A stretch of DNA of 64,000 nucleotides from an uncultured Fretibacterium sp. (GTDB lineage: Bacteria > Synergistota > Synergistia > Synergistales > Aminobacteriaceae), in contig CALBPU010000181.1 of assembly GCA_937899395.1 (NCBI GenBank), positions 4,297-68,296 on the forward strand, given 5' to 3'. Every line of letters starts with the position of its first letter. Position 1 is the first letter of the stretch. The translations under genes were made by a program, and so were the position numbers. Positions 9,860-55,338 of the stretch are shown here, piece by piece. The notes below the pieces were generated by a model. The model made no database searches, was not told the origin of the DNA, and worked only from the letters and a program-made list of their open reading frames with translations.

Positions 9860-11860
<2,001 letters not shown>

Positions 11861-13381: not shown

Positions 13382-13454
13382 TAAAAATTTTCTCCTTTAT
13401 AATAATCTTTAGATATATTTTATTACACGTGAAAAATTTTCAAGAGGTGAAATA

Positions 13455-15924: not shown

Positions 15925-16018
15925 AAATTTTTTCTCCTTTTGCGTAATTTATTCTTGTAAAAATTTTACTTTTAGGGTTATTATACTCATTAATAAAATT
16001 TATTGGGGGTAAATCAAA

Positions 16019-16387: not shown

Positions 16388-16389
16388 TC

Positions 16390-16878: not shown

Positions 16879-16951
16879 AACCTTCTAATTTTTTAATTTA
16901 GTTGGAAGCTCTGTTTTGAGGAAATTTTCAGGGCTTCCTTCTTTTCAAACA

Positions 16952-17749: not shown

Positions 17750-17804
17750 TAATAATGGCAATATTAGAAATTTTGAGAGAAGCACTCTCAACTCTTAACG
17801 TACA

Positions 17805-18248: not shown

Positions 18249-18250
18249 TC

Positions 18251-18967: not shown

Positions 18968-18978
18968 AGTGAAATAAA

Positions 18979-19016
18979 AATTCCCCTCAGATTTTTGAAG
19001 TCTAAGGGGAATTTTT
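18979..19016. terminator. Bidirectional intrinsic terminator
   Basis: TTCCCCT (18981-18987) pairs with AGGGGAA (19005-19011), flanked by an A-run and a T-run. It lies between convergent genes. Confidence 0.55.
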
Positions 19017-19055
19017 CAATAAGTTAGGAGATTTTTGCTGAAATTTAACTGGTGG

Positions 19056-20504
19056 TTATTTTTTGCTAATCATTATGAAATATGTTGAACCTTCACGCTC
19101 AATCATTAACACGATCGAAGTTTCTTCACCGATTGCCTTCTTAAGATCGTCAGTTGAAGTTACTTCTTGACCGTTGACCTCGATTAATAAATCTCCTTCC
19201 CTGACTTCTCCGTCAAAATCAGCTTTCGATTCTCTGTCAATTTCCGTTATTACAAGGCTGTTAGTGTTTGAATCAATATTATATTTTTTCTTAAGATTGT
19301 CATTAAGTTTTGCTACACGGCTTATTCCGAAATCCTTCAAAGCGTCTGAACCGTCCGAAACTTTTTCCTCAGTTTCTTTATTTTGTGTTTCAGCATCAGG
19401 GCGGCCATCTGTTGTATTTGCACGTTCTCCTAATTGAACATCAAAATTCAATTTTTTGCCTTTTCTTACGACTACAAGTTTTGCAGTTGAGTTAGGAGCG
19501 AGGGTTCTGACTTTCTGGACAAATGCGCTTGCATCTTTTACTTTTTCGCCGTTGAGTTCAATTACGACATCTCCGCGTTTAATTCCTGCTTTGTCTGCCG
19601 GATCTCCTTTGAACACGTCGTTAATCATTGCTCCGTTAGTGCCCTCAACTTTGTAAGCCTTTGCCATTTGTTCGTTAATATCTCTGACAGATACTCCGAG
19701 CCAACCTCTTCTTGCATGGCCGTGTGAAACTAAATCGCCCATAATTTCCTTCGCTTTATTAACAGGAACTGCAAAGCCTAAACCTTGAGCATAGGGAATA
19801 ATTGCAGTATTAATTCCGATAACTTTACCGTCCATATTTAATAACGGGCCGCCTGAATTTCCGGGATTAATTGCCGCGTCAGTCTGAAGGAAATCGTCAA
19901 AATTTACGTCCTGAGCATGAATGCTTCTGTTTTTAGCTGAAATTACTCCAGCAGTTACGGAGTGTTCAAAACCGTAAGGATTGCCGATAGCTACAACCCA
20001 TTCTCCTACTTCAACAGCATCTGAATCGCCTAATTCAAGAACGGGTAAATCTTCATCGGGTTCAATCTTTATTACGGCTAAATCATACGTTGCGTCTTGT
20101 CCTTTGAGTGTTGCGGGATAAGTTTTTTTGTCGCCGTTTGCAAGCAAAACTGAAACAGTGATTTTGTCAACGCCGTCAACAACGTGATTATTCGTTAAAA
20201 TTAATCCGTCTTTTGAAACTATGAAACCTGAACCTCTTCCCTTCATCGGAACTGAACGCGTGAAATCTTTGAAAGCATCACCGAAAAATCTCTTGAAAAT
20301 CGGATCGTCATCAAAGGGAAAAGGTGAGAATGAACGTTTCGCAGTTTTCTCAACATCAATATTAACGACAGCAACCGAAGCGTTTTTAACAATAGAAACG
20401 ATAGGGTTAGACGATCCAAAAGGAGACATAGCGGCTAATGATGTTCCACCTAACGCAAAAATCAACGCAAGCGTCAAAACTAACGCTAAAAATTTTTTAC
20501 TCAA
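19056..20504 (-). CDS. htrA: HtrA/DegP-family periplasmic serine protease with two PDZ domains
   Basis: Signal peptide, catalytic triad context (TNNHVV, D, GNSGGPLLN), then two PDZ-sized C-terminal regions. Confidence 0.9.
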   Translation of the reverse strand: MSKKFLALVLTLALIFALGGTSLAAMSPFGSSNPIVSIVKNASVAVVNIDVEKTAKRSFSPFPFDDDPIFKRFFGDAFKDFTRSVPMKGRGSGFIVSKDGLILTNNHVVDGVDKITVSVLLANGDKKTYPATLKGQDATYDLAVIKIEPDEDLPVLELGDSDAVEVGEWVVAIGNPYGFEHSVTAGVISAKNRSIHAQDVNFDDFLQTDAAINPGNSGGPLLNMDGKVIGINTAIIPYAQGLGFAVPVNKAKEIMGDLVSHGHARRGWLGVSVRDINEQMAKAYKVEGTNGAMINDVFKGDPADKAGIKRGDVVIELNGEKVKDASAFVQKVRTLAPNSTAKLVVVRKGKKLNFDVQLGERANTTDGRPDAETQNKETEEKVSDGSDALKDFGISRVAKLNDNLKKKYNIDSNTNSLVITEIDRESKADFDGEVREGDLLIEVNGQEVTSTDDLKKAIGEETSIVLMIEREGSTYFIMISKK

Positions 20505-20599
20505 AATAAAATTACCTCCAATAATTTTTTCAATTTTTTACAGCGGAATATTTTAATGGCTCTCAAAAATTATTTCACGCCAATTTTTACCTATATTAA

Positions 20600-21385
20600 C
20601 TAACGGCTTTTCACTGATTTTAATCTACGCAAACCATACATAAGCCATAAGCATTCAAACGGAAGAGCAACAGCTAAAATGATATACAAAGGTGTCGTGA
20701 AAATCTTCTCAAATAAGTGTGTCTTATCTCTGAAATAAATCATTGAAAATCTCATAAGCGAATATAATATTAATGCTAACGGAGCTATTACTGAATGAGA
20801 TTGCGAGATTAAATTTGAACGTCTGATTTTTTGCTCGACCTTTAACAAAATTAACATTGTTATTAACATTATTACAGAGTAATAAATTTGTACAGGGTGT
20901 CTTGTAACTCCTGCTTTATCAAATGGAAAATGAACGGCAAAAAATGATTTTGAACGCAGCCCTACACAGCAGCCGTTGAAAAAACAACCCCATCTTCCTA
21001 TTATTATTGAAATACATGAAGGAATTGCAGCAGCTTCACATAATTTTAAGAACGAAATTTTTTTGCGATATAAACTCGTTAAAAATCCTGCTGTTATGCC
21101 TCCGATTACTGCTCCGATTTCGTGAAGTCCTCCGCGATTCAGGTCTAATAATAATGACGGATTGTTATAATAAACCTTCCAATTAAAAATATATTCGGGC
21201 ATTCTTGCTCCTAACAATATGAAAAAAAACGATACCGCCATAACCGTTCTGGCTTCGTCCTCGTTAATATCGTAAAGTTTAAGGCGTTTGATGCTCCAGA
21301 TTATAGCGAGCGACAGACCTATAAACCATAAAACGCTGTATGTGTCAATTCTAAATCCGAAAATATGAAAAAGTGTTGGGTACAT
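20600..21385 (-). CDS. lgt: Prolipoprotein diacylglyceryl transferase
   Basis: 261-aa polytopic protein. GRWGCFFNGCCVG and HPVQIYYS motifs. Confidence 0.85.
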   Translation of the reverse strand: MYPTLFHIFGFRIDTYSVLWFIGLSLAIIWSIKRLKLYDINEDEARTVMAVSFFFILLGARMPEYIFNWKVYYNNPSLLLDLNRGGLHEIGAVIGGITAGFLTSLYRKKISFLKLCEAAAIPSCISIIIGRWGCFFNGCCVGLRSKSFFAVHFPFDKAGVTRHPVQIYYSVIMLITMLILLKVEQKIRRSNLISQSHSVIAPLALILYSLMRFSMIYFRDKTHLFEKIFTTPLYIILAVALPFECLWLMYGLRRLKSVKSR

Positions 21386-40633: not shown

Positions 40634-40642
40634 AGATTAAAT

Positions 40643-40675
40643 ACCCGTTAAAAATTTTTTGACGGGTTTTTTTTT
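40643..40675 (+). terminator. Intrinsic terminator after the antiporter gene
   Basis: ACCCGT (40643-40648) pairs with ACGGGT (40662-40667), followed by a T9 run. Confidence 0.7.
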
Positions 40676-40705
40676 GCTTAAATATTTATTTTTAATGTTA
40701 AAATC

Positions 40706-40713
40706 TCCGATAA
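40706..40713 (+). promoter_or_regulatory. Sigma-28 (FliA)-like -10 element TCCGATAA upstream of fliD
   Basis: It matches 7 of 8 positions of the GCCGATAA consensus, 42 nt before the ATG. No TAAA lies at the expected 15-nt spacing, so this is a partial match only. Confidence 0.3.
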
Positions 40714-40754
40714 AACTTACAGGATAGTCTAACAGAACAGGAGGTTAAATTTTC

Positions 40755-43700
40755 ATGGCTACAATGAGTGTATCGGGCGTAGTGTCCGGTATGGATTGGG
40801 AAGGAATGATTGACAGCGTTATAGAGTCAGCTTCAAATGCTGCTTACGTTCAAGTCAACAAGAAAACCAATCTTACGAATAAAAAAACGTTGTTTGAAGA
40901 AATGAAAGTTTCAATGCAGACGATTCAATCATCGCTCTCAACTTTGAAACTTCCTTCGACATATAAAGCCAAAGAAATTGATATTGAAAGAATAGACACG
41001 AACGGTTCATATAAAGGGGTATTAACTGCAACGGTTAATGCAGATGCTGAAGTGAACGTTCACGAACTTGAAGTCAAACAGTTAGCTACTGCGCAAACGA
41101 ACAGGTCTAAACAAATTACATCATCAACTCTCAAAAGCACGTTAGGAGGTTTAGACAGCTCGAAATTTTATATTAACGCAGGAGGCCAGCAGGTAGGAAT
41201 TGATGTTTATGCAACAGATTCTCTTGACTCTTTGAAATCGAGAATTAATACCACGTTAAAATCTCTCAACACTCCTTTAGCTGTATCTGCTTCAGTAGTT
41301 GACAGCAAGTTAATATTAAAAAGCGATTACACAGGACTTGGTAAAACAACCGTAGAAGGAACTCTCAAGGATAAATATACAACGACAGGCTGTACAAGTT
41401 TAGCAACTCTCATAACTAACACTGATGCAGGAACTACAACGAATATTGTCGTAAGCGATGATTATTTAGATGAACTGAAAGTTACGAGCGGCTCATCAAG
41501 CTACACAATTCATAAAGATTATGAGGTTGTTAATAACGAAATACGCTGGAAACAATACGAGGATACTAACGCCGTGAAACTTGGTGATAGTGTCAGTGCT
41601 GTTTACACTATGGGAGCAGACGATGTTATTGAGGTGAAAGCGACACGTGGTTCGGGCGATTCAGACAGTGTTGATTTTGGTTTTGATGTTAAGGATTACG
41701 GTACGTTAGGAAATCGAATGAAAATTAAATCCGTTCAAACTAAAACTGAAACAGAAGTTATAGATGATTCGCTTTTGCAGGAACCTACCGAAGCTGAATT
41801 AGCCTCTGAAACAGGAATTGATGAAGACGGGAACGAATATGTTGATACATTCAGCTACACAGAGGTTAAAGGTGAAACTGAAGACGATGATTCAACATAT
41901 ATTTTGAGCCGAACAAGAACGACAACAATAAACAGTTATTATACTTACGGAACGGATTTTACGTATTCGGACGGAAAAATTAACTGGATTACAAAGCCCG
42001 ATAAAACAACAAACGAACCTTCGTCTTATACTGTGAGTTATACGAAAGATAATTCGGTGGATTTCAACGTATCAGCCACAAAAACAAAAGAATTTGAGCA
42101 GCCTACAAGTTACACTGTAAGTTACCAGAAAGAGAATTACGTTGTTTCAACAAGGGAAATTCCTAATAATGGTACCAATAATCCAAGCGTATATTCAGGT
42201 TGGTTCGGAGGATATACATTCGACACTCTTGCAAATGAACTTAGTGAAATTGGTATAGGTACTGTTACCGCTGATGACGGATATGCATATCTTGATTTAT
42301 ACGGGACTAATGAAATCTCTGTAAAAGTTGGAGATACTGAATATGTTTATGGTCAAGATTATGTTATAAGATCCAGTTCAAACGGAAGTATCGTTGTAGA
42401 TTTTACAAAAGGAGACGATCCAACAAGCGGCGGTGTGGGGCAATACAGAACCAAAAAAGGTATAACCCCTGTTGCAACTGGTAACGATATTCCTTCGTCA
42501 TTTACGTTAGTTCGTAATCGCACATATCTTTATAAGACCGATACGGACGAAGATTCAGTTTACTCGAATATTTTGAGCATGGCCGACGGAGATTATTCCG
42601 GAATTACTATAAAAGATTCAGACAATAATACTTATTATTACACGTCAGATTCTACACAGTTAGACAATGAACATTTTATGATTGATGCACATGGGAGTAT
42701 TGTTTGGGCTGAAGAAGCAGCGGCCGATGATGAAATAAACATTGACGATCTTTTCACTCACTACAAAGAAATTACAGGCTCTGAACTTGGTACAGTAACT
42801 CTCACAGGAACAGACGGTATCATAAGGACGTACATTGACCCAGATGATGATTACAGAGACGCTTTCACAATAACTTCCGATAACGGTAAAACTTACGAAT
42901 ACGGACGTGATTTTGTCATAAGGGTAAATGATAATGGACAAGGTTATGTTGTTTCGTGGCTTGTATCAGGAGACAGGAATAAAGACGGAAAATATACTAC
43001 TCAAGATACTAACGTCGCCGTCTCAGCTTATACACAGCATAAAAACATCAGTACTCTTGGATTTCAAGTTGCGCCCGATGCTGAAACATATCCGAATTAC
43101 AAGTTCAATTTTGAGTATGAAAAACTTGATACAACAACTAAAACAGTATCATCATCAGCTACTGATAAAACACTTGAAACAATATTGGGTTATGAACTTT
43201 CAGAGGACGAGTACGAAGATCTTGTAATCAAAAACGGTTCAACAACTTATGAATACGGCTATGATTTCACGATTGAAACAGACGATGACGGCAACGCTTA
43301 TATAAGCTGGATTGATACAACTCCGAAGAAACCTTCTGAAGATGTTACGTTCAAAATAAGTTATTATACTGGTGATACCTACAAGTCAAAAAATATTGCT
43401 CCTACATCAAGTTCCACTACAACTAACCTTGTAGAAATTGTTATTGATGATGGCGATAAAATGTCTTGGAATGATATTCAGAACGTTACAAGTGCTGATG
43501 ACTTTGATCCTTCAGATATTTATGTCATTGACAATAACGGAAAAAGGTTTGAATATGGTACGCATTTCACGTTCGCCGTAACTGGTAATCAAAACTCAAA
43601 AAACGATGCTGGAGAACTTTTGCCAAGAATTACTTGGAATACATCAAATGTAAGTGCAAGCGACCTTACAACACCGTATAACGTTTATTACAAAACAGGG

Positions 43701-46157
43701 CTTAACATGTCTTCCGAAGACCTTGAGATAGAATATGATGATGATTATTCTGTATTCTCAGATCTATTCTGGGATCTTGATGATGATGAAATACCTTCGA
43801 GCTTCAGCAAAGATACAATCTCTATTACCGACAGCGAAGGCACAAAATATTATTACGGCAGAGATTTCAAAATCAACACCGACGGAACGATTAAATGGCT
43901 CGACTCAATCCCGACAGGCCCTGATGAAAAATCCGAATATATTATCACTTATGAAAGCTTCGACGCTCTCTCAACAACGTCAACTTTTGATTCAAGCAAT
44001 CCTAATTCAACTGTAAAAATTCAAGTTGACAATTACGGAAATTATTCAGACAGCACAGGCACTTATTTGAGTTATGAACAAATGCTCTCAAGCATGGGAC
44101 TTACAACAAGCTCTGCAAGCAATATAATCGACTCTTCATTCAAGAAAGCTAATCTGTTCACTATCACAGATGAAAATGATAATGAATATACTTACGGCAC
44201 TGATTTCGTAATTAGAATGAGCGATGATTATGTTGACGGTGTAACGGGAGAACATTTGGCTGTTATTGAATGGCTGGACGATGACGATTCAAACTCACCT
44301 GCAAACGGCTTGAATTTTACTCTCACTTACGGTTCTGACGGCGGAGAAGAATTTTCAATGGACGAAGCAATTACTCGTTCAAATTCTGATGTAATTGTTT
44401 CAGGTGTCAGCGGCACTCCTGTTTATTCTGAATTTGAGAGCGGAACTGTTACGATTAATCAGGCCGGAAGAACTTATTATCAGGGCTATGATTTTGATGT
44501 CGGAACTAATGACAACGGCGAAACTGTTATCAACTGGAAAACAGGCACCGATTACGAATGGTATTTACCAAATTCAGGCCAATATTCCCGCTACACTGTA
44601 AATCTTGTAACTTCTGACGGAACTGAAAAAACTTATTCAGGTGTTAGAAATTACGAGGACACTTTAGACATGAGAGATTACGGCTTCACTAACGTAGACG
44701 GCAGTTTGACTTCAATTAAGTACGGCGGTAAAACTTACGACTTAACAAGCACAACAGTTGATGAAGACGGTAAAACAGATACTGATTACGCTGCTGAACG
44801 TAACGGAATTACCGTTAATAACGGTACTAACGGAGGCGTAAAAGTTTTCAATTTCGATTGGACAGTACCGAATTTAACATCTCGTGAAGGCTTGCCTACT
44901 TACGGTTCTGACGTTGAAATTGAATATGATTATTGCGCTAATACTTTCTCTTTATCTGATGAAGGAGACGGGATTATTGATTTACTCGGACTTGAAGACG
45001 ATGTTACACAAGCTCTTAATGCTGTTATTGAACTTAACGGCGTTGAAATTGAAAAGGACTTGAACGACATCGGCTCATCTTACGAGAACGAAATTTCAAA
45101 TCTCAAGGGCGTAACTCTTCACTTAAAAGGAACTGGAAAAGTATCGCTTGATATTTCACATGACGCTGAAAAAGCTGTAACGTCGATTCAGACATTCGTT
45201 GAAAATTATAATTCTTTAATGACTTGGATTAATACACGAATGACTGAAAGCCAAGTTGATGATGATACGGCAGCTACGATTGATTCTGATGATTTCAGAA
45301 TGAGATGGGGACTTTTACACGGAAACTCACTGCTTAGAAACGCTAAAAGCAGCATGAGAGATATTACCGCAAGAAATTACACTTTCTCATTCACAGAACG
45401 AAAAAGTTCAACAGAAATTTACGGGCCTATGTCTTTTAACGGACTTAAGAATGATTCGACATTGAGGCTTCGAGTAGGTTCTGTATATGCTGACGTTATA
45501 ATTTCACCGACTGATACATTGCAAGACATCGTTGACAAAATTAACGACTCTTCAAATTCCGCAATGAGAAATATTTTTTACGGTTCGGACGGGAAATTAT
45601 TGGATCAACCGTTACTCAAAGCAAGTATCAGTTCGGATAAATTAGTTATCAAATCAACATCAGAAGATGAAATTACTATTTCAGGTTCTGCTGCATTAAA
45701 TGCCCTCAAAATGAATTACACTTACAAGGGCGTTTATCAGCTTGGAATTGCGACAACTTCCGACGATTACGGCAAGAGCGGAGAACTTGAATTTGACGAA
45801 GAAAAATTCATGGAAGCTCTTGAAGATAATCCCGATGAAGTACAGGAATTAATGTTGAAATATACCGCTGAAATGGATACATGGTTGAAATCAATGTTGA
45901 CGACTTCGGCATCAGGTGAAACTTCAGGAACTTTAACGAGGCAGATTGAAGATTTAGAATCTCAAATTAACGACATTAACGATTACCTTGAAGATTATCA
46001 GGACAGACTCGATCGAATGGAGGAAAATTTGAGGACTAAATACGCTGCCGCAGAACAAAATATTTCAAAGTTATCCCAGCAGGCAAGCGCAATCGCAGCA
46101 ATCTTACAACAGTTAAGCGGAAATAACTCTAATAATTCCTCAAGTTCATCAAGCTAG
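40755..46157 (+). CDS. fliD: Giant flagellar filament cap protein homologue (FliD/HAP2) with an internal insertion of about 1200 aa
   Basis: GGAGG RBS. The N-terminus MSVSGVVSGMDWEGMIDSVIESASNAAYVQVNKKTNLTNKKTLFEEMKVSMQTIQSSLSTL is FliD_N-like. The C-terminal 400 aa or so (VIELNGVEIEKDLNDIG..ISNLKGVTLHLKGTGKVSLDISHDAEKAVTSIQTFVENYNSLMTWIN ... GELEFDEEKFMEALEDNPDEVQELM ... LTRQIEDLESQINDINDYLEDYQDRLDRMEENLRTKYAAAEQNISKL) is FliD_C-like. Confidence 0.8.
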   Translation: MATMSVSGVVSGMDWEGMIDSVIESASNAAYVQVNKKTNLTNKKTLFEEMKVSMQTIQSSLSTLKLPSTYKAKEIDIERIDTNGSYKGVLTATVNADAEVNVHELEVKQLATAQTNRSKQITSSTLKSTLGGLDSSKFYINAGGQQVGIDVYATDSLDSLKSRINTTLKSLNTPLAVSASVVDSKLILKSDYTGLGKTTVEGTLKDKYTTTGCTSLATLITNTDAGTTTNIVVSDDYLDELKVTSGSSSYTIHKDYEVVNNEIRWKQYEDTNAVKLGDSVSAVYTMGADDVIEVKATRGSGDSDSVDFGFDVKDYGTLGNRMKIKSVQTKTETEVIDDSLLQEPTEAELASETGIDEDGNEYVDTFSYTEVKGETEDDDSTYILSRTRTTTINSYYTYGTDFTYSDGKINWITKPDKTTNEPSSYTVSYTKDNSVDFNVSATKTKEFEQPTSYTVSYQKENYVVSTREIPNNGTNNPSVYSGWFGGYTFDTLANELSEIGIGTVTADDGYAYLDLYGTNEISVKVGDTEYVYGQDYVIRSSSNGSIVVDFTKGDDPTSGGVGQYRTKKGITPVATGNDIPSSFTLVRNRTYLYKTDTDEDSVYSNILSMADGDYSGITIKDSDNNTYYYTSDSTQLDNEHFMIDAHGSIVWAEEAAADDEINIDDLFTHYKEITGSELGTVTLTGTDGIIRTYIDPDDDYRDAFTITSDNGKTYEYGRDFVIRVNDNGQGYVVSWLVSGDRNKDGKYTTQDTNVAVSAYTQHKNISTLGFQVAPDAETYPNYKFNFEYEKLDTTTKTVSSSATDKTLETILGYELSEDEYEDLVIKNGSTTYEYGYDFTIETDDDGNAYISWIDTTPKKPSEDVTFKISYYTGDTYKSKNIAPTSSSTTTNLVEIVIDDGDKMSWNDIQNVTSADDFDPSDIYVIDNNGKRFEYGTHFTFAVTGNQNSKNDAGELLPRITWNTSNVSASDLTTPYNVYYKTGLNMSSEDLEIEYDDDYSVFSDLFWDLDDDEIPSSFSKDTISITDSEGTKYYYGRDFKINTDGTIKWLDSIPTGPDEKSEYIITYESFDALSTTSTFDSSNPNSTVKIQVDNYGNYSDSTGTYLSYEQMLSSMGLTTSSASNIIDSSFKKANLFTITDENDNEYTYGTDFVIRMSDDYVDGVTGEHLAVIEWLDDDDSNSPANGLNFTLTYGSDGGEEFSMDEAITRSNSDVIVSGVSGTPVYSEFESGTVTINQAGRTYYQGYDFDVGTNDNGETVINWKTGTDYEWYLPNSGQYSRYTVNLVTSDGTEKTYSGVRNYEDTLDMRDYGFTNVDGSLTSIKYGGKTYDLTSTTVDEDGKTDTDYAAERNGITVNNGTNGGVKVFNFDWTVPNLTSREGLPTYGSDVEIEYDYCANTFSLSDEGDGIIDLLGLEDDVTQALNAVIELNGVEIEKDLNDIGSSYENEISNLKGVTLHLKGTGKVSLDISHDAEKAVTSIQTFVENYNSLMTWINTRMTESQVDDDTAATIDSDDFRMRWGLLHGNSLLRNAKSSMRDITARNYTFSFTERKSSTEIYGPMSFNGLKNDSTLRLRVGSVYADVIISPTDTLQDIVDKINDSSNSAMRNIFYGSDGKLLDQPLLKASISSDKLVIKSTSEDEITISGSAALNALKMNYTYKGVYQLGIATTSDDYGKSGELEFDEEKFMEALEDNPDEVQELMLKYTAEMDTWLKSMLTTSASGETSGTLTRQIEDLESQINDINDYLEDYQDRLDRMEENLRTKYAAAEQNISKLSQQASAIAAILQQLSGNNSNNSSSSSS
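41494..44540 (+). repeat. At least nine divergent protein-level repeats (100-180 aa spacing) with core motif Y-x-Y-G-x-D-F/Y-x-I ... I-x-W inside fliD
   Basis: Motif copies start near 41494 (YTIHKDYEVVNNEIRW), 41934 (YYTYGTDFTYSDGKINW), 42334 (EYVYGQDYVIRSSSNGSIVVDF), 42886 (TYEYGRDFVIRVNDNGQGYVVSW), 43238 (TYEYGYDFTIETDDDGNAYISW), 43538 (RFEYGTHFTFAV..RITW), 43838 (KYYYGRDFKINTDGTIKW), 44178 (EYTYGTDFVIRMSDD..AVIEW) and 44464 (TYYQGYDFDVGTNDNGETVINW). Confidence 0.65.
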
Positions 46158-46241: not shown

Positions 46242-49200
46242 TTAGTGTTTTTTACGAGATATAAGGTAAAACGCAAGACAAAACATTGCGCTGAAGCCCA
46301 ATCCTGAATTACAGCCTGAACCGCTACTGCCAAGCGTACTCTTGTTTTCATCATCAGGGTCTGTTTCAAGCTCGTCATCAATTTCGACATTCAAGTTCTT
46401 AACCCATTCTGCAACACTATCGTTATAGATCGTGTACTCAAATTCAGTCATAGGCTTATAGAGCGGGTAAATATAGTTAGGCTGGTTTGTTTCCTCGCCG
46501 CCGAAAGTATAAGTGCCCGATGCCGTTGTACCATTGGGATCATTGTACGGTTTTCCGAGATATTTCCATGCAACGACTTTGGTTACTGAATGATCTGTTT
46601 CGCCCCATGCTTTGAACTGCCAAGAAAGTAAGCCGGAAATGTGAACGTGCTTATCAATCCATTCATCGCTCTTGCCAGCCTCTTTATAGAGAGCTGTGAG
46701 AACGTTGTAAGTATCTTGAGCTACAGCGGGGTTTGCACCGTCAGTTTCGCCGTTGAACATCCAAGTTGAGACTTCGTTTTCAATCATTGCATTGACTTCT
46801 GCTTCAGTCCACTGTTGGAAGCTGCTGTGTTCCACTGTACCGTCCATTGCTTCCATATCCTCTGTACTGCTAACCATCATTCCGAAGTTGCCGTTGCATT
46901 CAACATAAGCGTTAATTAAGTCAGGACGCTGGCGAACAACATCGGAGGCAATGATCGTTCCTTGAGAGTTACCTACTAATGTGATGTTATCTACATCGGC
47001 ATTCCAGTTTTGCACAGCGTAATCCATAACGCTAGCTATCTCAGCTGCAGCATTTTCTGTGTTGTTGGAGTGAACGTTGACGCTCATGATAATAGCATCA
47101 GGATATTGTCTGTGCCATTCAGTCATCATAACATCGTAAACTGTATTACAGCCGGGGTTGTTGGCATCTGTTTCTCCATCATAGGAACGTCCGTCAGAGC
47201 CTTTGCCGTCGACTACTTCCCAATAGCAAACACCGCCTCCGGTCTGATAATCTACAATAGGATAAGGATTAGCTCGATTGGCATCATAGTTATCTGGCCA
47301 TATAACGAAGACGGGAACGCATTTTTCGGTACCTTGAGCTTCGTTAATAAGGTCATAGCTTTCGGCATCTCTTCCGATGTTGACCATAACAAGCTCGACT
47401 TTATCAAGGTCATCTGTAAGAATGGTCTCTTTCCAAGGAGTATTACTGAGCATCTTGCCAACGCCGTTAGTTGAAGCTATTCCGTCTTTAACGCTTGCAC
47501 CGCCCACACAGAGAACGAGATCCAAGTTCTCTCTGCGCTGCAAACCTTTGTTGAGCTTATTCGGGTAAATTGTAACGCCAAGTGCATCGTTTTTTTCTTC
47601 ACTGCCGTAATGAAGCTTACCTTCCGTGTCAATATACCAAGCAGAGCTGGTGCAGAGTGTTCCGTAAGTTTCGCGTGAACGGTCTGTAACTTTATCTGTA
47701 GTCTGAGAATCAACGGTCAATGTAACCTTATTGCCTTCAACAGAAATATCAGTGATTTTCATAGCGCCAAATTCCGGATTATTGAAACCACGATCGTAGA
47801 CAGCATAGTCCGTAAGCTTCACGCCTGTGAGATCGGTTCCAGACTTGTAAACGATCTCAACTTTTCCAACCTTATAGCCATAGAAGCAGGCTTCAGCGAT
47901 GGCTTGAATACTTTCGATTTCTGAGGCTGAAGGAGCAGAGGATTTACCAAGTGCCCAGTTGATGAAGTTATCGCCGTAAACGATGTACTCATGCCCGTCT
48001 TTCTTTCCCTGATCGCCGCCAGTGGTACGAACGCCACGTGTTACTACTTCATAAGTATCGCCGATAGCCGTTTTCTCGTCGTAAGTGAGAACGCCGTCAA
48101 CAACATCACAATCTGAACCGTAGTAAATACCGCGACCGTTTTTCGCTTCGCCGAAGTACCAATAATTAATTCTAGTGGTTGAGTGATCGCTCTCGCCCCA
48201 ATAGTAGAAAGGTTCTGACGGGAAAGCAGTCAAGCGAAGGTTCTCGGAAATCCAAGCATCGTCCATGCCAGCTTTCTCGTAAGCTGCTGTTTGTTCCTCA
48301 ACGGCATTGATGTTATTGAAATCCTGCTCAGCGTCAAATATCCAAGCACGTAAACCTGTTTTAGCAATAGCTAAACGATCATCAGCAGTCCAGAGAGCAT
48401 AACCGCTAGTAGGGCCACCAAAAAGACCATTGTTGCAAAGGAAGGTGCCAATGGTGAAATTGTAAGTGTCTTTGTCGAGTGTTCTAGTACGCTCGCTGCT
48501 GCCCCATGTCATAGCGTCTTGGTCATTAGTGTAGGGCTGACCTGCAAGAGCTTGAATAATGGTGCTGGCTGCCATAGTGCTTCTAGAATTGCCGTGAATG
48601 ATTATCTTTGCAGGGTCTACGGAGTAGTTATCGATCATGTACTTCATAACTTTTACGTCATCAACAACGTAATCATAGTCCAAATCCTGACAACTCTTAC
48701 CATCTTCATAATAACTTGCGCCGATAGCTGAACGGTCATGAACGTTGACAACAATAGCTTCTTCCCCTAGCCAAGCGGTAGTTGCAGCATCGTACATAAC
48801 GCCAGTTCCGAAGTTGTTTGTGCCATCTTCCAGAATCCAGAATGAAGTGCCGTCTCCGGTAAACGTGAAAACTAAAGGATATTTCTTTGAAGCGTCAAAG
48901 TCTTTGGGTTGATAAAGGAAACCTCGAACATAGTTATCTTTCACAGCTTTTGTCAGTGATGCTCCTGTGCTTTCGATCTGAATACCAAGTTCTTCAAAGG
49001 ATTTCAATGTTCCTCTGCCGTCATCAGTATTGAAGCCTATGTCTTGAGTTTCAAGCCATTTGTTATTTGCAGTGTACTTGCCGTTATTATCAACTAATGA
49101 AAGGTAAGTGCCTTCGGTATCACCTGCATGACGTAAACGTAACTCTAAGCTCTCACGTTTCTGATAGCCACTGAGACGCATTGTACGTAAATTTGCAGGT

Positions 49201-49739
49201 AAAGCTTTATAACCATTTTCGTCATTATCTTCAGTTCCAAAGTAAATCGTTCCATCTTTAGCTCTGAACCATGGGCCTGTGCAGTAAATACCGAACGCAT
49301 TGCGTGAACGGCTTCCGGTTTTGTTCTCACCGTTGTAGATTAATGCGTTTGTCTCTGTGGCATAAGTCCCCTGATAAACGTACAGCGTTACCGTTTGTCC
49401 GTCGACCTTGAAGGCTTGCAGCTTGACCTGTCCATAATCGGGTGTCTGTGTACCGCGATCTTCCAGTGTGTAAATATTCTGGTAGTTCCCAGCGTTCAGC
49501 CCTGCGAGATCCACACCGTCATTGTAAACGATCTCAACCTGCGTAAGACCTTGCCCGTAAGGGGTCATGTCTGTTGTTGCCTGCAAGCTTTTGACATCGT
49601 TAACAGTAAGGGTTGTCGCATCTCTTACAGCAGCTAATGACATAGAAGCTAACGCAAGAATAACAACAACTGCTAATAAAAACAACGAATAACCTTTTGA
49701 AAAACGTTTCCTTTTCAAAGAAACATCTCTCCTTTCCAA
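46242..49739 (-). CDS. Secreted tandem-duplicated alpha/beta-hydrolase (esterase-like, each half preceded by a beta-rich N-domain) with Synerg-CTERM-like sorting signal
   Basis: Signal peptide ...LALASMSLAAV. The two halves are paralogous (VEIVYNDGVDLAGL.. / VEIVYKSGTDLTGV..). Nucleophile elbows are HGNSRST and VGNSQGT. WGESDHS and WGETDHS give conserved His motifs. The C-terminus GSSGSGCNSGLGFSAMFCLAFYLISRKKH reads as motif + TM helix + basic cluster. Confidence 0.75.
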   Translation of the reverse strand: MERRDVSLKRKRFSKGYSLFLLAVVVILALASMSLAAVRDATTLTVNDVKSLQATTDMTPYGQGLTQVEIVYNDGVDLAGLNAGNYQNIYTLEDRGTQTPDYGQVKLQAFKVDGQTVTLYVYQGTYATETNALIYNGENKTGSRSRNAFGIYCTGPWFRAKDGTIYFGTEDNDENGYKALPANLRTMRLSGYQKRESLELRLRHAGDTEGTYLSLVDNNGKYTANNKWLETQDIGFNTDDGRGTLKSFEELGIQIESTGASLTKAVKDNYVRGFLYQPKDFDASKKYPLVFTFTGDGTSFWILEDGTNNFGTGVMYDAATTAWLGEEAIVVNVHDRSAIGASYYEDGKSCQDLDYDYVVDDVKVMKYMIDNYSVDPAKIIIHGNSRSTMAASTIIQALAGQPYTNDQDAMTWGSSERTRTLDKDTYNFTIGTFLCNNGLFGGPTSGYALWTADDRLAIAKTGLRAWIFDAEQDFNNINAVEEQTAAYEKAGMDDAWISENLRLTAFPSEPFYYWGESDHSTTRINYWYFGEAKNGRGIYYGSDCDVVDGVLTYDEKTAIGDTYEVVTRGVRTTGGDQGKKDGHEYIVYGDNFINWALGKSSAPSASEIESIQAIAEACFYGYKVGKVEIVYKSGTDLTGVKLTDYAVYDRGFNNPEFGAMKITDISVEGNKVTLTVDSQTTDKVTDRSRETYGTLCTSSAWYIDTEGKLHYGSEEKNDALGVTIYPNKLNKGLQRRENLDLVLCVGGASVKDGIASTNGVGKMLSNTPWKETILTDDLDKVELVMVNIGRDAESYDLINEAQGTEKCVPVFVIWPDNYDANRANPYPIVDYQTGGGVCYWEVVDGKGSDGRSYDGETDANNPGCNTVYDVMMTEWHRQYPDAIIMSVNVHSNNTENAAAEIASVMDYAVQNWNADVDNITLVGNSQGTIIASDVVRQRPDLINAYVECNGNFGMMVSSTEDMEAMDGTVEHSSFQQWTEAEVNAMIENEVSTWMFNGETDGANPAVAQDTYNVLTALYKEAGKSDEWIDKHVHISGLLSWQFKAWGETDHSVTKVVAWKYLGKPYNDPNGTTASGTYTFGGEETNQPNYIYPLYKPMTEFEYTIYNDSVAEWVKNLNVEIDDELETDPDDENKSTLGSSGSGCNSGLGFSAMFCLAFYLISRKKH

Positions 49740-51978: not shown

Positions 51979-54900
51979 ATGAATAAGCGAAAAAAATTTA
52001 TGTCATTATTTTTATGGACTGTAATTTTTAGCGTGATGTTCGTTTCGTCAGGATTTTCGGAAGAGGCTTTGCAATATGCAACAGGTTATGTTAAACCGCC
52101 GATTGATTTTTCACACATCGGAAGGTCTACACCTGAACAGGAAAGATATTTCAAGGACAAAGCAAGCAATTTCCCCGTCAGTTATGACCTGAGAAAACTT
52201 AACAGAGTTAATAAGACTGTCGGAGATCAAAATCCTTACGGAACATGCTGGGCATTTGCTACACTCGGAGCAATGGAATCAAATTATATGACGCAAGGTT
52301 TAACATCTTTGGGAAGCAAGCCGAATTTATCCGAACTTCATTTAGCTTGGTTCGCTTACAAAGACCCGACACAGGGAAATTCATTTACTGTCAACAAAGA
52401 TAAAGCAATTTTGGATCAAAGCGGACAAGTATTAAAAGCTTCAGCTCTTTTGTCTCGAATGTCAAGCCCTGTAATTGAAAAATCAATGCCGTATTCAAAG
52501 GCAGGAACAAACAAAAAGAAATCCGACAGCGTAATGACAAAATATGTAGGAGATAAAGCACCTTCGGATTATTTCCCGTTAGCATTGAATTTGAAAGAAT
52601 GGCTTTTGCTAGGTTCAGTTAGTGATGATAACCGTGAAAAGCAAAAAGAAAATATCAAAAAAATGCTTTCAGTTTACGGTGCCGTACAGATAAGTTATTA
52701 TGCAGGTGAGGGTGCAACATCTCCTGAAGGAAGCACAACAGCGTATTTTGATAACTCTCACGGAACTGAAACAAATCATGGTGTTTTAATCGTAGGTTGG
52801 AACGATAATTTTTCCAAAACAAAATTCAACAAAACAAAATCAAAGAGACCTAAGAATAACGGAGCATGGATTGTAAAAAATTCATGGGGAAAAGATTGGG
52901 GCAACAGCGGTTATTTTTATATGTCGTATGAGCAGTTTATTGCAGATGCTTCTGTGTTCATTGTAGAAGAAGCTAAAACAGATGAAAAAGTTTATTATCA
53001 TGACGCTTTAGGTTTTGTTTCTTCTCACGGTTACGGAAAAAATACTCCTGCTTACGCCGCAAATGTTTTCAAAGCAACAGCAACTGAGGGAATAAGATCC
53101 GTAGGTGTTTACGCAACAGATGACAACACTAAATACGAAATATATATTTGCAACGATTTAGGAACTGCAAAACCTTCATCGCCCTTATCGGAAGATATAA
53201 AACGTGTAGCGTCAGGAACTTTTATGAATGCTGGCTATCATACTGTTGACCTTTTTCAGCATTTACTTGTAAAAAAGAATCGATATTTTTCTGTAATCGT
53301 AAAAATGACAACTCCGAATTCAGACAAGCCGATTGCAGTTGAACGTGTCGTAAAGGATTATTCTGACGGAGCTGTAATAAAATCAAAAGAGAGTTATTTT
53401 TCTTCTGATATGCTTACATGGACTGACGGCACAAAAATCAGAAACGATGAAAATAAAATCGCTAAGAGCAATGCCTGCATAAAAGTTTTCACGTTTTATG
53501 GTATTCCTATTGATGAAGCACATTTTCCTGATGAACAATTCAGAAATTGGGTAAGCAAAAATTGTGATTTTGATAAAGATGGTTATCTTAGCACTAAAGA
53601 AATTTTTCAAATTAAAAATGTCAGTGTCAGCAAGTGTAACATTGCAAATTTGAAGGGCATTGAATATTTTACAGCTATGAAAATGCTTTCCTGCAGTAAC
53701 AATAATATGACAAAATTGGATGTAAGCAAATGTAATGCTTTAGAAATACTCACTTGTAATAATAATAAATTGACAAGTTTGATAGTAAACAAAAATACTT
53801 TGCTTAAATATCTTGAGTGTACGCATAATCAGCTGATAAAAATAAATATTAGCAAATGTACCTCTTTGGAAACACTGTTTTGTGGCTATAATCAACTAAC
53901 AACTTTAACACTAAGCAATAATATTTCTCTCAAAAGACTTGACTGCGAATATAATCAACTAATAAAATTAAACGTCAGTAAGTGTAATGCTCTGGAGGAA
54001 CTTTATTGCTACAACAATCAACTCAATACCTTAACACTAGGTGATAACATTCTTCTTGAAAAAATTTTTTGCAATAATAACCAGATAACTAACTTAAATA
54101 TCAGCAAATGTACTGCACTAAAATCACTCCAGTGTAATGATAATCAAATGCAAGTCTTAACGATTGGAGTTAATATTGCTCTTGAAAGCCTTCATTGTCC
54201 TAATAATCAGCTCACAAAATTAAATGTAAGTAAATGTAAAGCTCTGGAATGGCTTTACTGCAATGACAATCAACTTAAAACTTTAACTCTTGGCAATAAC
54301 ATTCTGTTAAAATATTTTCAGTGCTACAATAACCAACTTACAAATTTAAACGTAAGCAAGTGCACTTCTCTAAAAATTCTAGGATGTTATAATAATCAAA
54401 TTAAGACATTAACGCTTGGTTTTAATATTGCTTTGGAAGAACTTTATTGCCACGACAATCAGTTGACAGCCTTAAATGTTAACAAGTGCAGTACTTTGAA
54501 AAAGCTTTATTGCTACGAGAACAACATAACAACATTAACGTTAGGTTCTAATACTGCTCTGAAATATATTCACTGTTATAGTAATAAGATAACAAATTTG
54601 AATGTCAGTAAATGTACTGCATTGAATACGTTGTATTGTCATGATAATAAATTAAAAACTATAACATTCGGACAAAATATTGCTTTGGAATATTTTTCTT
54701 GCGACGATAATCAACTTACAAAATTAGATGTCAGCAAATGTATTTCTTTAATTTCTCTTTCTTGCAGCAATAATCAACTTACAACATTAAAGTTAGGAAA
54801 CAATACAGCATATTCTATGTTCGTGTATTGTGTCAACAACAAACTTAAAAATATTGATGCATCAGGTTGTTTTAATGTTCACATTGTTGCTGATGAAGGA

Positions 54901-55338
54901 GTAAACATTACTTGGCCTTCATCAAAATCAAACTCCGCAAAATCATATTCATCGCAGAAATTTGACACTCAAACCCAAAATCACGGCGGCAATGAAAGCA
55001 GCGTGTTCAAAACCGCTTCACTGAAAATTTCGGACGATGATATTTTGTGGCAAGGTGAAAATCGTGATGAAGATTTGGTGAAAGTCCGAGCTAACATGCC
55101 CGTAACGTTTATTATCGGCGATTGGCTCAAATCTGACGGAACAAACGCAAATGTTTCTGTCGATAATATTCAAATTTTTGTCGATGATAAATTCGTTGAA
55201 GGTATTGAAATTTCTGATGAAAAAATCTTCACTCTTCCTGCTGAATTTGTGCATGATGATTTCAAAATCGGTGTTAAAGCAAAAATTCAGGGAAGCGAAT
55301 TTGAATCTGATGAGTTATATATCTCAGCTGAAAATTAA
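51979..55338 (+). CDS. Giant secreted protein: signal peptide, papain-family (C1) cysteine peptidase, beta-domain, LRR array of about 20 units, shared C-terminal domain
   Basis: Active-site context GDQNPYGTCWAFATLGAMES (Cys), NHGVLIVGWND (His), KNSWGKDWGNSGYFYMSY (Asn/Trp). The LRR cap is EAHFPDEQFRNWV, and the LRR array follows. The last 105 aa or so are homologous to the C-terminus of the 6110-9823 protein. Confidence 0.85.
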   Translation: MNKRKKFMSLFLWTVIFSVMFVSSGFSEEALQYATGYVKPPIDFSHIGRSTPEQERYFKDKASNFPVSYDLRKLNRVNKTVGDQNPYGTCWAFATLGAMESNYMTQGLTSLGSKPNLSELHLAWFAYKDPTQGNSFTVNKDKAILDQSGQVLKASALLSRMSSPVIEKSMPYSKAGTNKKKSDSVMTKYVGDKAPSDYFPLALNLKEWLLLGSVSDDNREKQKENIKKMLSVYGAVQISYYAGEGATSPEGSTTAYFDNSHGTETNHGVLIVGWNDNFSKTKFNKTKSKRPKNNGAWIVKNSWGKDWGNSGYFYMSYEQFIADASVFIVEEAKTDEKVYYHDALGFVSSHGYGKNTPAYAANVFKATATEGIRSVGVYATDDNTKYEIYICNDLGTAKPSSPLSEDIKRVASGTFMNAGYHTVDLFQHLLVKKNRYFSVIVKMTTPNSDKPIAVERVVKDYSDGAVIKSKESYFSSDMLTWTDGTKIRNDENKIAKSNACIKVFTFYGIPIDEAHFPDEQFRNWVSKNCDFDKDGYLSTKEIFQIKNVSVSKCNIANLKGIEYFTAMKMLSCSNNNMTKLDVSKCNALEILTCNNNKLTSLIVNKNTLLKYLECTHNQLIKINISKCTSLETLFCGYNQLTTLTLSNNISLKRLDCEYNQLIKLNVSKCNALEELYCYNNQLNTLTLGDNILLEKIFCNNNQITNLNISKCTALKSLQCNDNQMQVLTIGVNIALESLHCPNNQLTKLNVSKCKALEWLYCNDNQLKTLTLGNNILLKYFQCYNNQLTNLNVSKCTSLKILGCYNNQIKTLTLGFNIALEELYCHDNQLTALNVNKCSTLKKLYCYENNITTLTLGSNTALKYIHCYSNKITNLNVSKCTALNTLYCHDNKLKTITFGQNIALEYFSCDDNQLTKLDVSKCISLISLSCSNNQLTTLKLGNNTAYSMFVYCVNNKLKNIDASGCFNVHIVADEGVNITWPSSKSNSAKSYSSQKFDTQTQNHGGNESSVFKTASLKISDDDILWQGENRDEDLVKVRANMPVTFIIGDWLKSDGTNANVSVDNIQIFVDDKFVEGIEISDEKIFTLPAEFVHDDFKIGVKAKIQGSEFESDELYISAEN
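53641..54880 (+). repeat. Tandem 63-nt (21-aa) LRR coding repeats with a 126-nt super-period
   Basis: Units alternate between two types: L..L.C..NQLT.LNVSKC.. and L..L.C..NQL.TLTLG.NI.. For example, LEWLYCNDNQLKTLTLGNNIL then LKYFQCYNNQLTNLNVSKCTS. Confidence 0.75.

What the first reader, a model, noticed from the sequence alone, without database searches (positions are those of the whole stretch)
41494..44540. Unrecognised repeat module (Y-x-Y-G-x-D-F-x-I ... G-x-I-x-W) iterated at least nine times in the FliD insertion
At least nine copies of one short signature recur at 100-180-aa spacing. Examples are TYEYGRDFVIRVNDNGQGYVVSW, TYEYGYDFTIETDDDGNAYISW, KYYYGRDFKINTDGTIKW, EYTYGTDFVIRMSDD...VIEW and TYYQGYDFDVGTNDNGETVINW.

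Each copy reads like a beta-hairpin: strand, a D-x-(D/N)-G turn, then a strand ending in Trp. Each is embedded in acidic, Thr/Ser/Tyr-rich sequence.

The copies are divergent at DNA level, so this is an old protein-level repeat rather than recent slippage. I cannot match the motif to a named repeat family (it is not Ig/He_PIG, cadherin, FG-GAP or RHS/YD as I know them). It may be a new extracellular beta-module.
Basis: seen in the sequence. Interest (0 to 1): 0.6.

Follow-up and report, generated by a model that had tools for sequence, protein, structure and literature searches.

The report
Phage-tail-type repeat module in giant FliD
The flagellar cap protein of this uncultured Synergistaceae bacterium (closest named relatives are ruminant-gut MAGs) is four times normal size because a ~117-residue unit, whose 57-residue beta core also occurs in phage baseplate and tail-sheath proteins, has been copied about ten times in its outward-facing part.

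Summary
ORF 40755-46157(+) is the genome's only FliD (1800 aa). Its Pfam-blank insert holds 8 strict copies of [YF]-x-[YFQ]-G-x-[DH]-[FY], against 0.016 expected by chance. Two clear degenerate copies and two doubtful ones are also present. The copies are old: DNA repeats are at most 36 nt and paralogs are 23-43% identical.

The unit is larger than a hairpin. It has a 57-residue conserved core inside a ~117-residue period. Across 82 FliDs, length = 618 + 117 × modules (r = 0.96, 1-14 modules).

No Pfam family confidently matches the window's modules. However, the module is neither FliD-specific nor wholly unrecognised. It is homologous to a segment of Pfam DUF4815 (model positions ~273-362; solved in the phage 812 baseplate entries). 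It also recurs in tandem in Baseplate_J-like and tail-sheath proteins. Support comes from a phage-only profile (FliD at E 8e-24) and hhalign (97%).

Only 123 of 1.84 billion representative proteins match. FliD carriers with a named taxon are all Synergistaceae or Synergistales, and the array is greatly expanded in the window's genus.

The fold is unassigned and the function is inferred: an exposed decoration of the flagellar tip, possibly adhesive.

The parts
40755..46157 (+). fliD ORF, 1800 aa (P0001). It is the only FliD in the genome.
   Evidence: Pfam FliD_N 46.3 bits and FliD_C 109.3 bits, both above cutoff. The whole-genome scan finds one FliD_N match.
40785..41096 (+). FliD_N domain (aa 11-114)
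   Evidence: PF02465, E 6.8e-12.
41097..45011 (+). Insert with no Pfam, NCBIfam or PDB-sequence match (aa 115-1419). It contains the module array.
   Evidence: Over aa 201-1410 the composition is T 13%, D 12%, S 10%, Y 7.6%, with net charge -132.
41475..41555 (+). Module copy 0, degenerate (aa 241-267, LKVTSGSSSYTIHKDYEVVNNEIRWKQ)
   Evidence: weak. The orthologous position in homologues carries a canonical copy (KSYTYGTDFTVANGNEIRW).
41931..42059 (+). Module copy 1 core (aa 393-435)
42312..42443 (+). Module copy 2 core (aa 520-563). The Trp is replaced (VVDF).
42588..42710 (+). Module copy 3, degenerate (aa 612-652, ITIKDSDNNTYYYTSDS...GSIVW)
   Evidence: weak. Homologues have a canonical copy here.
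42855..42989 (+). Module copy 4 core (aa 701-745)
   Evidence: The ortholog in other species is 55-60% identical.
43224..43379 (+). Module copy 5 core (aa 824-875). It lies inside the AF2 query, aa 787-893.
   Evidence: 26.3 bits with the phage-only profile.
43503..43703 (+). Module copy 6 core (aa 917-983), with a long loop insertion
43806..43976 (+). Module copy 7 core (aa 1018-1074)
   Evidence: 25.5 bits.
44133..44339 (+). Module copy 8 core (aa 1127-1195)
   Evidence: 30.5 bits.
44439..44606 (+). Module copy 9 core (aa 1229-1284)
   Evidence: The ortholog in P0002 is 61% identical.
44700..44744 (+). Doubtful remnant copy (aa 1316-1330, GSLTSIKYGGKTYDL)
   Evidence: Scores are not significant.
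44898..44933 (+). Doubtful remnant copy (aa 1382-1393, TYGSDVEIEYDY)
   Evidence: Member of DNA repeat family D1, plus the translation.
45012..46154 (+). FliD_C region (aa 1420-1800). It includes a weak Flagellin_IN-like segment at aa 1580-1635.
40643..40667 (+). Terminator-like hairpin plus T-run ending the upstream antiporter gene, so fliD has its own transcription start
40706..40713 (+). TCCGATAA, a 7/8 match to the sigma-28 (FliA) -10 consensus GCCGATAA. No good -35 element is present. AGGAGG lies at 40739-40744.
   Evidence: Sequence read. The consensus is from my own knowledge and its function was not tested.

Best explanation
**What it is.** The ORF is the organism's single flagellar filament cap protein, FliD. 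Its variable region lies between the FliD_N and FliD_C Pfam blocks. In solved FliDs that region is the distal head (D2-D3), on top of the cap. Here it has been enlarged by tandem duplication of one small beta-rich unit.

**The unit.** It has a 57-residue conserved core: strand h-T-I-T-D, turn x-x-G, strand x-Y-x-Y-G, strand x-D-[FY]-x-I, turn, strand I-x-W, loop with Pro, strand Y-x-V-x-Y. FliD copies add a short helical leader and a variable linker, giving about 117 aa per unit.

**Relatives.** The core is homologous to a module that decorates contractile-tail phage parts:
- the N-terminal, DUF4815-covered part of the phage 812 tripod protein;
- C-terminal arrays on Baseplate_J-like proteins;
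- insertions in tail-sheath proteins.

**History.** Synergistota FliDs in general carry 1-4 copies. The window's genus expanded interior copies to 6-14. The positions are now orthologous between species, so the array is old and each position is kept under selection.

**How it probably works (inferred).** FliD is exported unfolded through the flagellar channel. The near absence of Cys fits that route. The modules then fold one after another outside the cell. A pentameric cap would display about 50 acidic modules as a large crown at the flagellar tip. By analogy with the exposed phage parts that carry the module, it would serve as an extended scaffold or contact surface. The most likely role is tip adhesion to glycans, plant fibre or other cells.

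**Confidence by part.** Identity, homology and evolutionary history: about 0.9. Exposed-crown geometry: about 0.6. Adhesive role: about 0.35.
For: **FliD identity and uniqueness:**

**The repeat is real:** (476 copies against 1 in shuffles).

**Whole-unit conservation:** W 97%, P 81%, G 98%, D 96%.

**Length is explained by module number:** length = 618 + 117n, r = 0.96, 82 FliDs.

**Homology to phage modules**
- P0058 reaches DUF4815 at 31.1 bits against a cutoff of 30.
- The module HMM hits the prophage DUF4815 ORF in the same genome at E 3.3e-6.
- The library-wide profile search gives Baseplate_J-like proteins at 2e-18 to 2e-15 and DUF4815 proteins at 4e-11 to 4e-7.
- The phage copies show the full signature.
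- A phage-only profile finds FliD at E 8e-24 with 8 domains. It also finds the prophage DUF4815 ORF on C85 and nothing else in the genome. Shuffles score at most 7.4 bits.
- hhalign gives 97.3% probability, E 2e-11, over 57 columns.

**DUF4815 is a phage baseplate-region protein**
- It lies in a prophage cluster in the order Baseplate_J, Tail_P2_I, BW3TFN, DUF4815.
- It is found in 804 phage records.
- It matches PDB chain 9euf and relatives from the phage 812 baseplate and arm maps (PMC13433997).

**Distribution**
- 104 of 268 genomes in the phylum carry the module.
- 46 of 47 genomes of the window's genus have it, with 1-11 matches each (4-11 in most).
- Other lineages have mostly 1-3 matches, a few up to 6.
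- Named FliD carriers are all Synergistaceae or Synergistales.

**Antiquity and positional orthology:**

**AF2:** a confident helix-helix plus 4-strand meander, pLDDT 84-93 over residues 1-70.

**Composition:** 2 Cys in 1800 aa; the insert's net charge is -132.
Against: - No window module reaches a Pfam gathering score. The best DUF4815 E-value among 74 modules is 5.5e-4.
- The module profile did not reach the 9euf chain in the PDB sequence search.
- Foldseek against PDB and BFVD gave nothing with E below 0.4, so the fold and its identity with the phage sub-domain are not shown structurally.
- The three-module AF2 model was poor (pLDDT 52). The fifth conserved strand was not modelled confidently. 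Domain boundaries and inter-module packing are therefore unknown.
- Placing the insert in the D2-D3 head rests on Pfam boundaries and general knowledge. Single-sequence searches did not reach solved FliDs.
- The module tree is unresolved. A single origin of the FliD copies is compatible with the data (AU p = 0.42) but not shown.
Confidence: 0.65

Rival explanations
1. The module is a remote member of the Ig-like repeat families of Gram-positive surface adhesins (Sgo0707_N2, CBM_X2, Shr-like HID, Big_14). The array would then be an adhesin stalk of that known kind, and the phage relationship would be secondary.
For: - The module profile hits PDB 4igb (Sgo0707 N-terminal region) at E 0.0025 and 7woi (Spa2) at E 0.027.
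- 4igb recurs in Foldseek: 31 columns, rmsd 2.3, probability 0.28.
- 7 of 74 modules touch Sgo0707_N2 and 7 touch Big_14 at E<1.
- Large surface proteins with these domains appear among the library hits: P0108, P0116, P0128 and P0134.
Against: - These hits share only the front hairpin (I-T-D-G-x-x-L-x-x-G-x-D-Y-T-V). They lack the I-x-W, Pro and Y-x-V-x-Y elements.
- Each copy scores only 4-15 bits. Whole-protein significance comes from summing many repeats.
- All Pfam scores are below cutoff.
- The phage proteins share the whole 57-residue core at far better scores.
Confidence: 0.2
2. The array is purely architectural. It widens the cap plate so that it can cover, and help fold, the unusually large flagellins of these bacteria. 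It has no binding role.
For: - The same genome has six flagellin-family ORFs with open frames of 565-1071 aa.
- Relatives have flagellin ORFs of 750-1250 aa.
- From general knowledge, the FliD head lies over the site where flagellin inserts.
Against: - Large flagellins occur across the whole order, including lineages whose genomes have 0-3 FliD modules. Examples are G027/G028 with flagellin ORFs of 1832-1856 aa and G032 with 1958 aa.
- Flagellin size therefore does not track the genus-specific expansion to 6-14 modules.
- FliD sizes in those lineages were not measured directly.
Confidence: 0.2
3. One reading: a new extracellular beta-module specific to FliD insertions, unrelated to any described family.
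For: - No Pfam, NCBIfam or PHROG family reaches its cutoff on the window's modules.
- No significant Foldseek match.
Against: - Reciprocal profile searches and hhalign link it to DUF4815, Baseplate_J-like and sheath modules.
- One homologue passes the DUF4815 cutoff.
Confidence: 0.05
4. The motif recurrence is a by-product of the Thr/Ser/Asp/Tyr-rich composition and does not reflect a domain.
For: The insert is compositionally biased.
Against: - 8 copies observed against 0.016 expected in composition-matched shuffles.
- 476 copies against 1 in shuffled homologues.
- Conserved W, P, G and D columns.
- Positional orthologs between species.
Confidence: 0.01

Closest known systems
Pfam DUF4815 (PF16075) phage baseplate proteins, including the 1152-aa chain in the phage 812 baseplate PDB entries (9EUF, 9EUJ/K, 9TIC, 9TIF-H), most likely the tripod protein gp119
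   Same: - The same 57-residue core signature (x-Y-x-x-G-x-D-[FY]-x-h, I-x-W, P, Y-x-V-x-Y), at DUF4815 model positions ~273-362.
- 1-3 copies per protein.
- Reciprocal profile hits, and hhalign 97% against a mixed phage-module alignment that includes DUF4815 copies.
   Different: - In phages it is a sub-part of a larger trimeric baseplate protein. In FliD it is a free-standing unit with an added helical leader and linker, repeated 8-14 times, in a flagellar export substrate.
- The window's modules do not reach the Pfam cutoff.
- Identifying the PDB chain as the tripod protein is my inference from which entries hold it.
Baseplate_J-like proteins with C-terminal module arrays, and tail-sheath proteins with inserted modules (P0086, P0087, P0089, P0137, P0154, P0175; P0135, P0129)
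   Same: Tandem arrays of 2-5 copies of the same module appended to, or inserted in, an exposed structural protein of a secretion- or injection-type nanomachine.
   Different: - The carrier protein is different.
- The period is shorter (about 70-90 aa), without the helical leader.
- They are very acidic. A halophile origin is only my guess from composition.
Sgo0707_N2, CBM_X2 and Shr-like HID repeats of Gram-positive surface proteins
   Same: They share the I-T-D-G-x-x-L-x-x-G-x-D-Y-T-V hairpin and occur as long tandem arrays in extracellular adhesins.
   Different: They lack the Trp strand, the Pro and the Y-x-V-x-Y strand. Matches are weak (4-15 bits per copy), so the relationship is unproven.
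FliD proteins with extra head domains (Helicobacter and Campylobacter D4-D5) and giant flagellins with expanded outer domains (my own knowledge, not tested here)
   Same: Enlargement of the surface-exposed variable region of a flagellar axial protein, while the terminal D0/D1 segments stay conserved.
   Different: Those carry one or two extra domains, or unrelated outer domains. Here a single module is iterated up to 14 times, and that module is shared with phage tails.

Membership tests
FliD (flagellar filament cap) | N-terminal FliD_N (PF02465) above the gathering score | tested here: met
   46.3 bits against a cutoff of 24.8, aa 11-114.
FliD (flagellar filament cap) | C-terminal FliD_C (PF07195) above the gathering score | tested here: met
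   109.3 bits against a cutoff of 25.4, from aa 1420.
FliD (flagellar filament cap) | NCBIfam equivalog cutoffs for full-length FliD | tested here: not met
   Best is 106.5 bits against a cutoff of 469. This is expected because the 1300-aa insert splits the match.
FliD (flagellar filament cap) | Functional context: a flagellated organism in which this is the cap gene | tested here: met
   It is the only FliD_N match in a 96.6%-complete genome, and six flagellin-family ORFs are present. Assembly of a cap was not testable.
Pfam DUF4815 (PF16075) | Whole-protein score at or above the 30-bit gathering cutoff | tested here: not met
   - P0001 as a whole has no hit.
- The best single module scores 7.6 bits.
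- 16 of 74 modules hit at E<1, with a best E of 5.5e-4.
- Homologue P0058 does reach 31.1 bits.
Pfam DUF4815 (PF16075) | Homology of the module to the DUF4815 sub-region (~273-362), by reciprocal profile search | tested here: met
   E 8e-24; 97.3%.
Pfam DUF4815 (PF16075) | Presence of the rest of the DUF4815 architecture (N-terminal ~270 and C-terminal ~200 model positions) | tested here: not met
   Only model positions ~237-362 are ever matched in FliDs. FliD is therefore not a DUF4815 protein; it shares one module with that family.
Ig-like / Sgo0707_N2 / CBM_X2 repeats | Pfam gathering score, or a significant structural match | tested here: not met
   Big_14 scores 16 bits against 27. Sgo0707_N2 best E is 9.4e-4, below cutoff. 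Foldseek to 4igb gives E 4.0.
   None appears. In one search, FG-GAP_3 appears once (1 of 74 modules, E 0.0083, below cutoff).

The most novel reading that the evidence does not exclude
Synergistaceae have turned the flagellar cap into a tip organelle. A pentamer would display about 50 copies of a module borrowed from, or shared with, contractile-phage baseplates. It would act as a multivalent adhesin for plant fibre, glycans or partner cells in the rumen, or as a decoy or shield against flagellotropic phages. The 57-residue core would define a new domain family that moves between phage tails and the flagellum.
Probability: 0.3. Interest if true: 0.7.

Novelty: new variant of a known kind. Interest (0 to 1): 0.5.

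Why it matters
FliD caps studied so far are about 400-700 aa, with two to four head domains. Here a whole gut-bacterial genus carries caps of roughly 1100-2100 aa, built by iterating one module.

The result gives three things:
- a defined, rare domain family (123 hits in 1.84 billion representative proteins) that has no Pfam model of its own in the copy available here and no assigned fold;
- a concrete evolutionary link between the exposed parts of phage contractile tails and the tip of the flagellum;
- a natural series of 1 to 14 modules for testing what extra mass on a flagellar cap does for assembly, adhesion or phage resistance.

It also flags that Pfam DUF4815 is a composite model whose positions ~273-362 form a mobile module.

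Tried and rejected
- **Three-module AF2 model** (A1, 28 staggered rows): pLDDT 52, so it was not used for any inference.
- **Foldseek on the single-module model:** against PDB the best E was 1.2; against BFVD the best E was 0.47. Neither gives a usable match. The PDB Foldseek copy ends 2026-04-08 and may lack the phage 812 entries.
- **PDB sequence searches:** phmmer of the whole insert gave only noise. phmmer of the FliD N- and C-terminal flanks did not reach solved FliDs, so the insertion point could not be mapped residue by residue.
- **PHROGs on two-module stretches:** no family.
- **PF27730:** it is precomputed on homologues P0005 and P0045 but is absent from the Pfam copy here, so it could not be identified.
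- **Literature:**
  - 'FliD' with 'Synergistetes', 'DUF4815' and '9EUF' found nothing relevant.
  - A broad FliD / filament-cap / insertion / giant-flagellin search listed only general FliD papers, none on such insertions.
  - The phage 812 paper gives no residue ranges for the tripod domains, and no supplements are held.
- **Cap size tracking flagellin size:** not supported.
- **Module phylogeny on 60 columns:**
  - It is unresolved, and the AU test neither rejects nor proves a single origin of the FliD copies.
  - It gives only a weak hint (SH-aLRT 81-93) that first and last modules are shared with 3-4-module FliDs and that interior modules are the genus-specific expansion.
Full report
**What is there**

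The finding lies inside a single ORF, 40755-46157(+), of 1800 aa.
- Pfam places FliD_N at aa 11-114 and FliD_C from aa 1420, both well above cutoff. Nothing is found in the 1300 residues between them.
- NCBIfam FliD equivalogs match the two ends only.
- The window's genome is 2.34 Mb in 193 contigs and 96.6% complete. It has just this one FliD and six flagellin-family ORFs.
- The gene is not next to other flagellar genes. Its neighbours are mgtE, a cation antiporter and a convergent 1165-aa hydrolase.
- Upstream lie the antiporter's terminator, a TCCGATAA element that resembles a sigma-28 -10 box, and a strong AGGAGG. The consensus is from my own knowledge.

**Checking the observation**

- The motif [YF].[YFQ]G.[DH][FY] occurs 8 times, against a mean of 0.016 in 5000 shuffles of the insert.
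- An HMM of these copies adds degenerate copies at aa ~241-267 and ~612-652, and doubtful remnants near 1319 and 1382.
- The two degenerate copies sit where homologues carry canonical ones.
- The same HMM finds 476 copies in 62 homologous proteins, against 1 in their shuffled versions.
- DNA repeats are at most 36 nt at 63-76% identity, and TRF finds no relevant array.
- The observation, including 'divergent at DNA level', is therefore confirmed.

**The unit is a domain, not just a hairpin**

- In an alignment of 276 complete units, conservation extends over the whole period. The elements are an F/L-T-I-T-D strand, x-x-G, T-Y-x-Y-G-x-D-[YF]-x-[IV], a D/N-G turn, I-x-W (W 97%), a Pro (81%) and a Y-T-[LV]-x-Y strand. 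A poorly conserved stretch follows.
- Modal spacing is 80-120 aa.
- Across 82 full-length FliDs carrying 1-14 modules, length = 618 + 117 × modules, with r = 0.96. Module number therefore explains nearly all the size variation.
- AF2 on a 74-module alignment gives pLDDT 78 overall and 84-93 for residues 1-70. The confident part is two short helices and a four-stranded meander covering the I-T-D, Y-x-Y-G, D-F-x-I and I-x-W strands. The fifth conserved strand is not confidently placed.
- A three-module model failed (pLDDT 52).

**Comparison with known families**

- No window module reaches any Pfam cutoff.
- The most frequent sub-threshold family among the 74 modules is DUF4815 (16 modules), followed by Sgo0707_N2 and Big_14 (7 each).
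- The repeat region of FliD homologue P0058 does pass the DUF4815 cutoff: 31.1 against 30 bits, model positions 237-359.
- Searching the window's own genome in six frames with the module HMM gave FliD and one other ORF on contig C85, at E 3.3e-6.
- That ORF is a DUF4815 protein (E 3e-97). Its matching segment reads KIYIEGTDFRF...GLDWSL...P..SKYDVTYEY.
- It lies in a prophage baseplate cluster in this order: tape measure, GPD-like hub, Baseplate_J, Tail_P2_I, BW3TFN, DUF4815, a coiled-coil fibre and, further on, a reverse transcriptase.
- DUF4815 relatives occur in 804 phage records. Where annotated at all, they are called structural or adsorption-associated tail proteins.
- A 1152-aa DUF4815 chain has been solved in 15 PDB entries. 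The eight codes listed include 9TIC, 9TIF-H and 9EUJ/K, which the phage 812 paper deposits as baseplate and baseplate-arm maps (PMC13433997). That makes it most likely the tripod protein gp119, but this is my inference.

**Global census**

- The module profile was run against 1.84 billion representative proteins. It gave only 123 hits at E ≤ 1e-3, of which 50 were at ≤ 1e-10.
- By local HMMs of the FliD termini, most strong hits are FliDs or fragments of them. These include ordinary-sized FliDs of 640-1100 aa with 1-4 modules.
- Every FliD carrier whose source names a taxon is Synergistaceae or Synergistales.
- The closest named relatives are MAGs from goat reticulum and red deer, plus one of unstated source.
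- The non-FliD hits with the full signature are DUF4815 proteins, Baseplate_J-like proteins with 2-5 modules, and tail-sheath proteins with inserted modules. Exceptions are P0147, which has no Pfam family, and P0156, where Pfam finds only Laminin_G_3 and whose copies I did not inspect.
- A second group shares only the front hairpin, at 4-15 bits per copy. These are large Gram-positive surface proteins with Sgo0707_N2, CBM_X2 or Shr-like HID repeats. This matches the weak PDB hits to 4igb and 7woi.
- That relationship is possible but unproven.

**Reciprocal and profile-profile tests**

- A profile was built only from 31 phage-protein modules, excluding the window's genome. In the window's genome it recovers FliD at E 8e-24 with 8 accepted domains and the prophage DUF4815 ORF at E 1e-12, and nothing else.
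- 500 shuffles of FliD score at most 7.4 bits.
- hhalign of the FliD-module alignment against the phage-module alignment gives 97.3% probability, E 2e-11, over 57 columns.
- I therefore treat homology of the core as established by sequence. It is not yet shown by structure: Foldseek was uninformative, and the profile did not reach 9euf directly.

**Evolution**

- In 268 genomes of the phylum, 104 carry the module.
- In the window's genus, 46 of 47 genomes do, with 1-11 matches each (4-11 in most), in ORFs of roughly 1100-2100 aa where complete.
- Other genera and families mostly have 1-3 matches, a few up to 6, in ORFs of about 680-960 aa.
- Within P0001 the paralogs are 23-43% identical.
- Modules 399, 717, 835, 1148 and 1244 each have a clear collinear ortholog in other species. 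Identities are 36-61% and scores 125-300, against about 60-120 for the next-best paralog in the clear cases. Module 533 is less clear-cut.
- A 60-column tree is unresolved. FliD and phage labels do cluster (8 changes against 23 in shuffles).
- First and last modules group with those of 3-4-module FliDs, while one group of ten contains only interior modules of giant FliDs. An AU test does not reject FliD-module monophyly (p = 0.42).
- The picture is an old 1-4-module insert in Synergistota FliD, followed by duplication of interior modules in one genus, and then long divergence under constraint.

**Mechanism**

Shown:
- identity as the sole cap protein;
- the array and its homology;
- 2 Cys in 1800 aa and a strongly acidic insert, net charge -132.

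Inferred from general knowledge of FliD (a cap with D0/D1 legs in the filament and a D2-D3 head plate on top, exported unfolded through the flagellar type III channel):
- The insert lies between the Pfam N and C blocks, which is in the head.
- The modules would fold outside the cell and project from the distal face of the cap. In a pentamer that would be about 50 modules.
- In phages the module sits on exposed peripheral parts: baseplate arms, extensions of the J-type wedge protein and the sheath surface. I therefore favour an exposed scaffold or contact surface, with adhesion as the most likely use.

The alternative that the cap merely scales with giant flagellins is weakened. Flagellins of 750-1950 aa occur across the order, in lineages whose genomes have 0-3 FliD modules.

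**Verdict**

This is a real and statistically overwhelming repeat. It is a new, strongly expanded variant of FliD, built from a module shared with contractile-phage tail proteins. That module is only implicitly covered by Pfam DUF4815. Its fold and function remain open.

Noticed in passing
own genome contig C85, about 3500-21300 (outside the window): A contractile-tail prophage fragment: tape measure, GPD-like hub, Baseplate_J, Tail_P2_I, BW3TFN, DUF4815 and a 955-aa highly repetitive coiled-coil fibre. It also has a reverse transcriptase (RVT_1) next to a 419-aa protein with no Pfam hit. That pairing could be a diversity-generating retroelement with its target.
   Followed up: partly
own genome contigs C55, C121, C87, C174, C33 (loci L002-L007): Six flagellin-family ORFs have long open frames (565-1071 aa). 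Relatives across the order have flagellin ORFs of 750-1250 aa, and a few reach 1832-1958 aa. None contains the FliD module.
   Followed up: partly
window 45220-45740 (aa ~1490-1660 of FliD): A second, smaller extra segment lies inside the FliD_C region, with a weak Flagellin_IN-like match (aa 1580-1635, E 0.05). The cap therefore appears to have an additional insertion apart from the module array.
   Followed up: no
window 40634-40754: fliD appears to be monocistronic and separate from other flagellar genes. An upstream terminator, a TCCGATAA sigma-28-like -10 box without a good -35, and a strong RBS are present. No fliS or flaG lies downstream, where a convergent gene follows instead.
   Followed up: partly
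homologues P0005 and P0045: The precomputed annotation lists Pfam PF27730 on two giant FliDs. That accession is not in the Pfam copy available here, so it could already be a model for this module or for something else.
   Followed up: partly
window 46242-49739 (-): A 1165-aa secreted-looking protein with only a weak Peptidase_S9 match in its C-terminal half. It looks internally duplicated and ends in a Gly/Ser-Cys, hydrophobic, basic tail.
   Followed up: no
window 51979-55338 (+): A 1119-aa protein combining a papain-type peptidase (Peptidase_C1), a Lectin_like domain and a long LRR array.
   Followed up: no
library proteins P0086, P0087, P0089, P0154, P0175: Baseplate_J-like proteins of 700-950 aa carry 4-5 very acidic copies of the module (D/E-rich, 'DGxxDxIxW'). 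The composition suggests halophile viruses, but this is only a guess.
   Followed up: no
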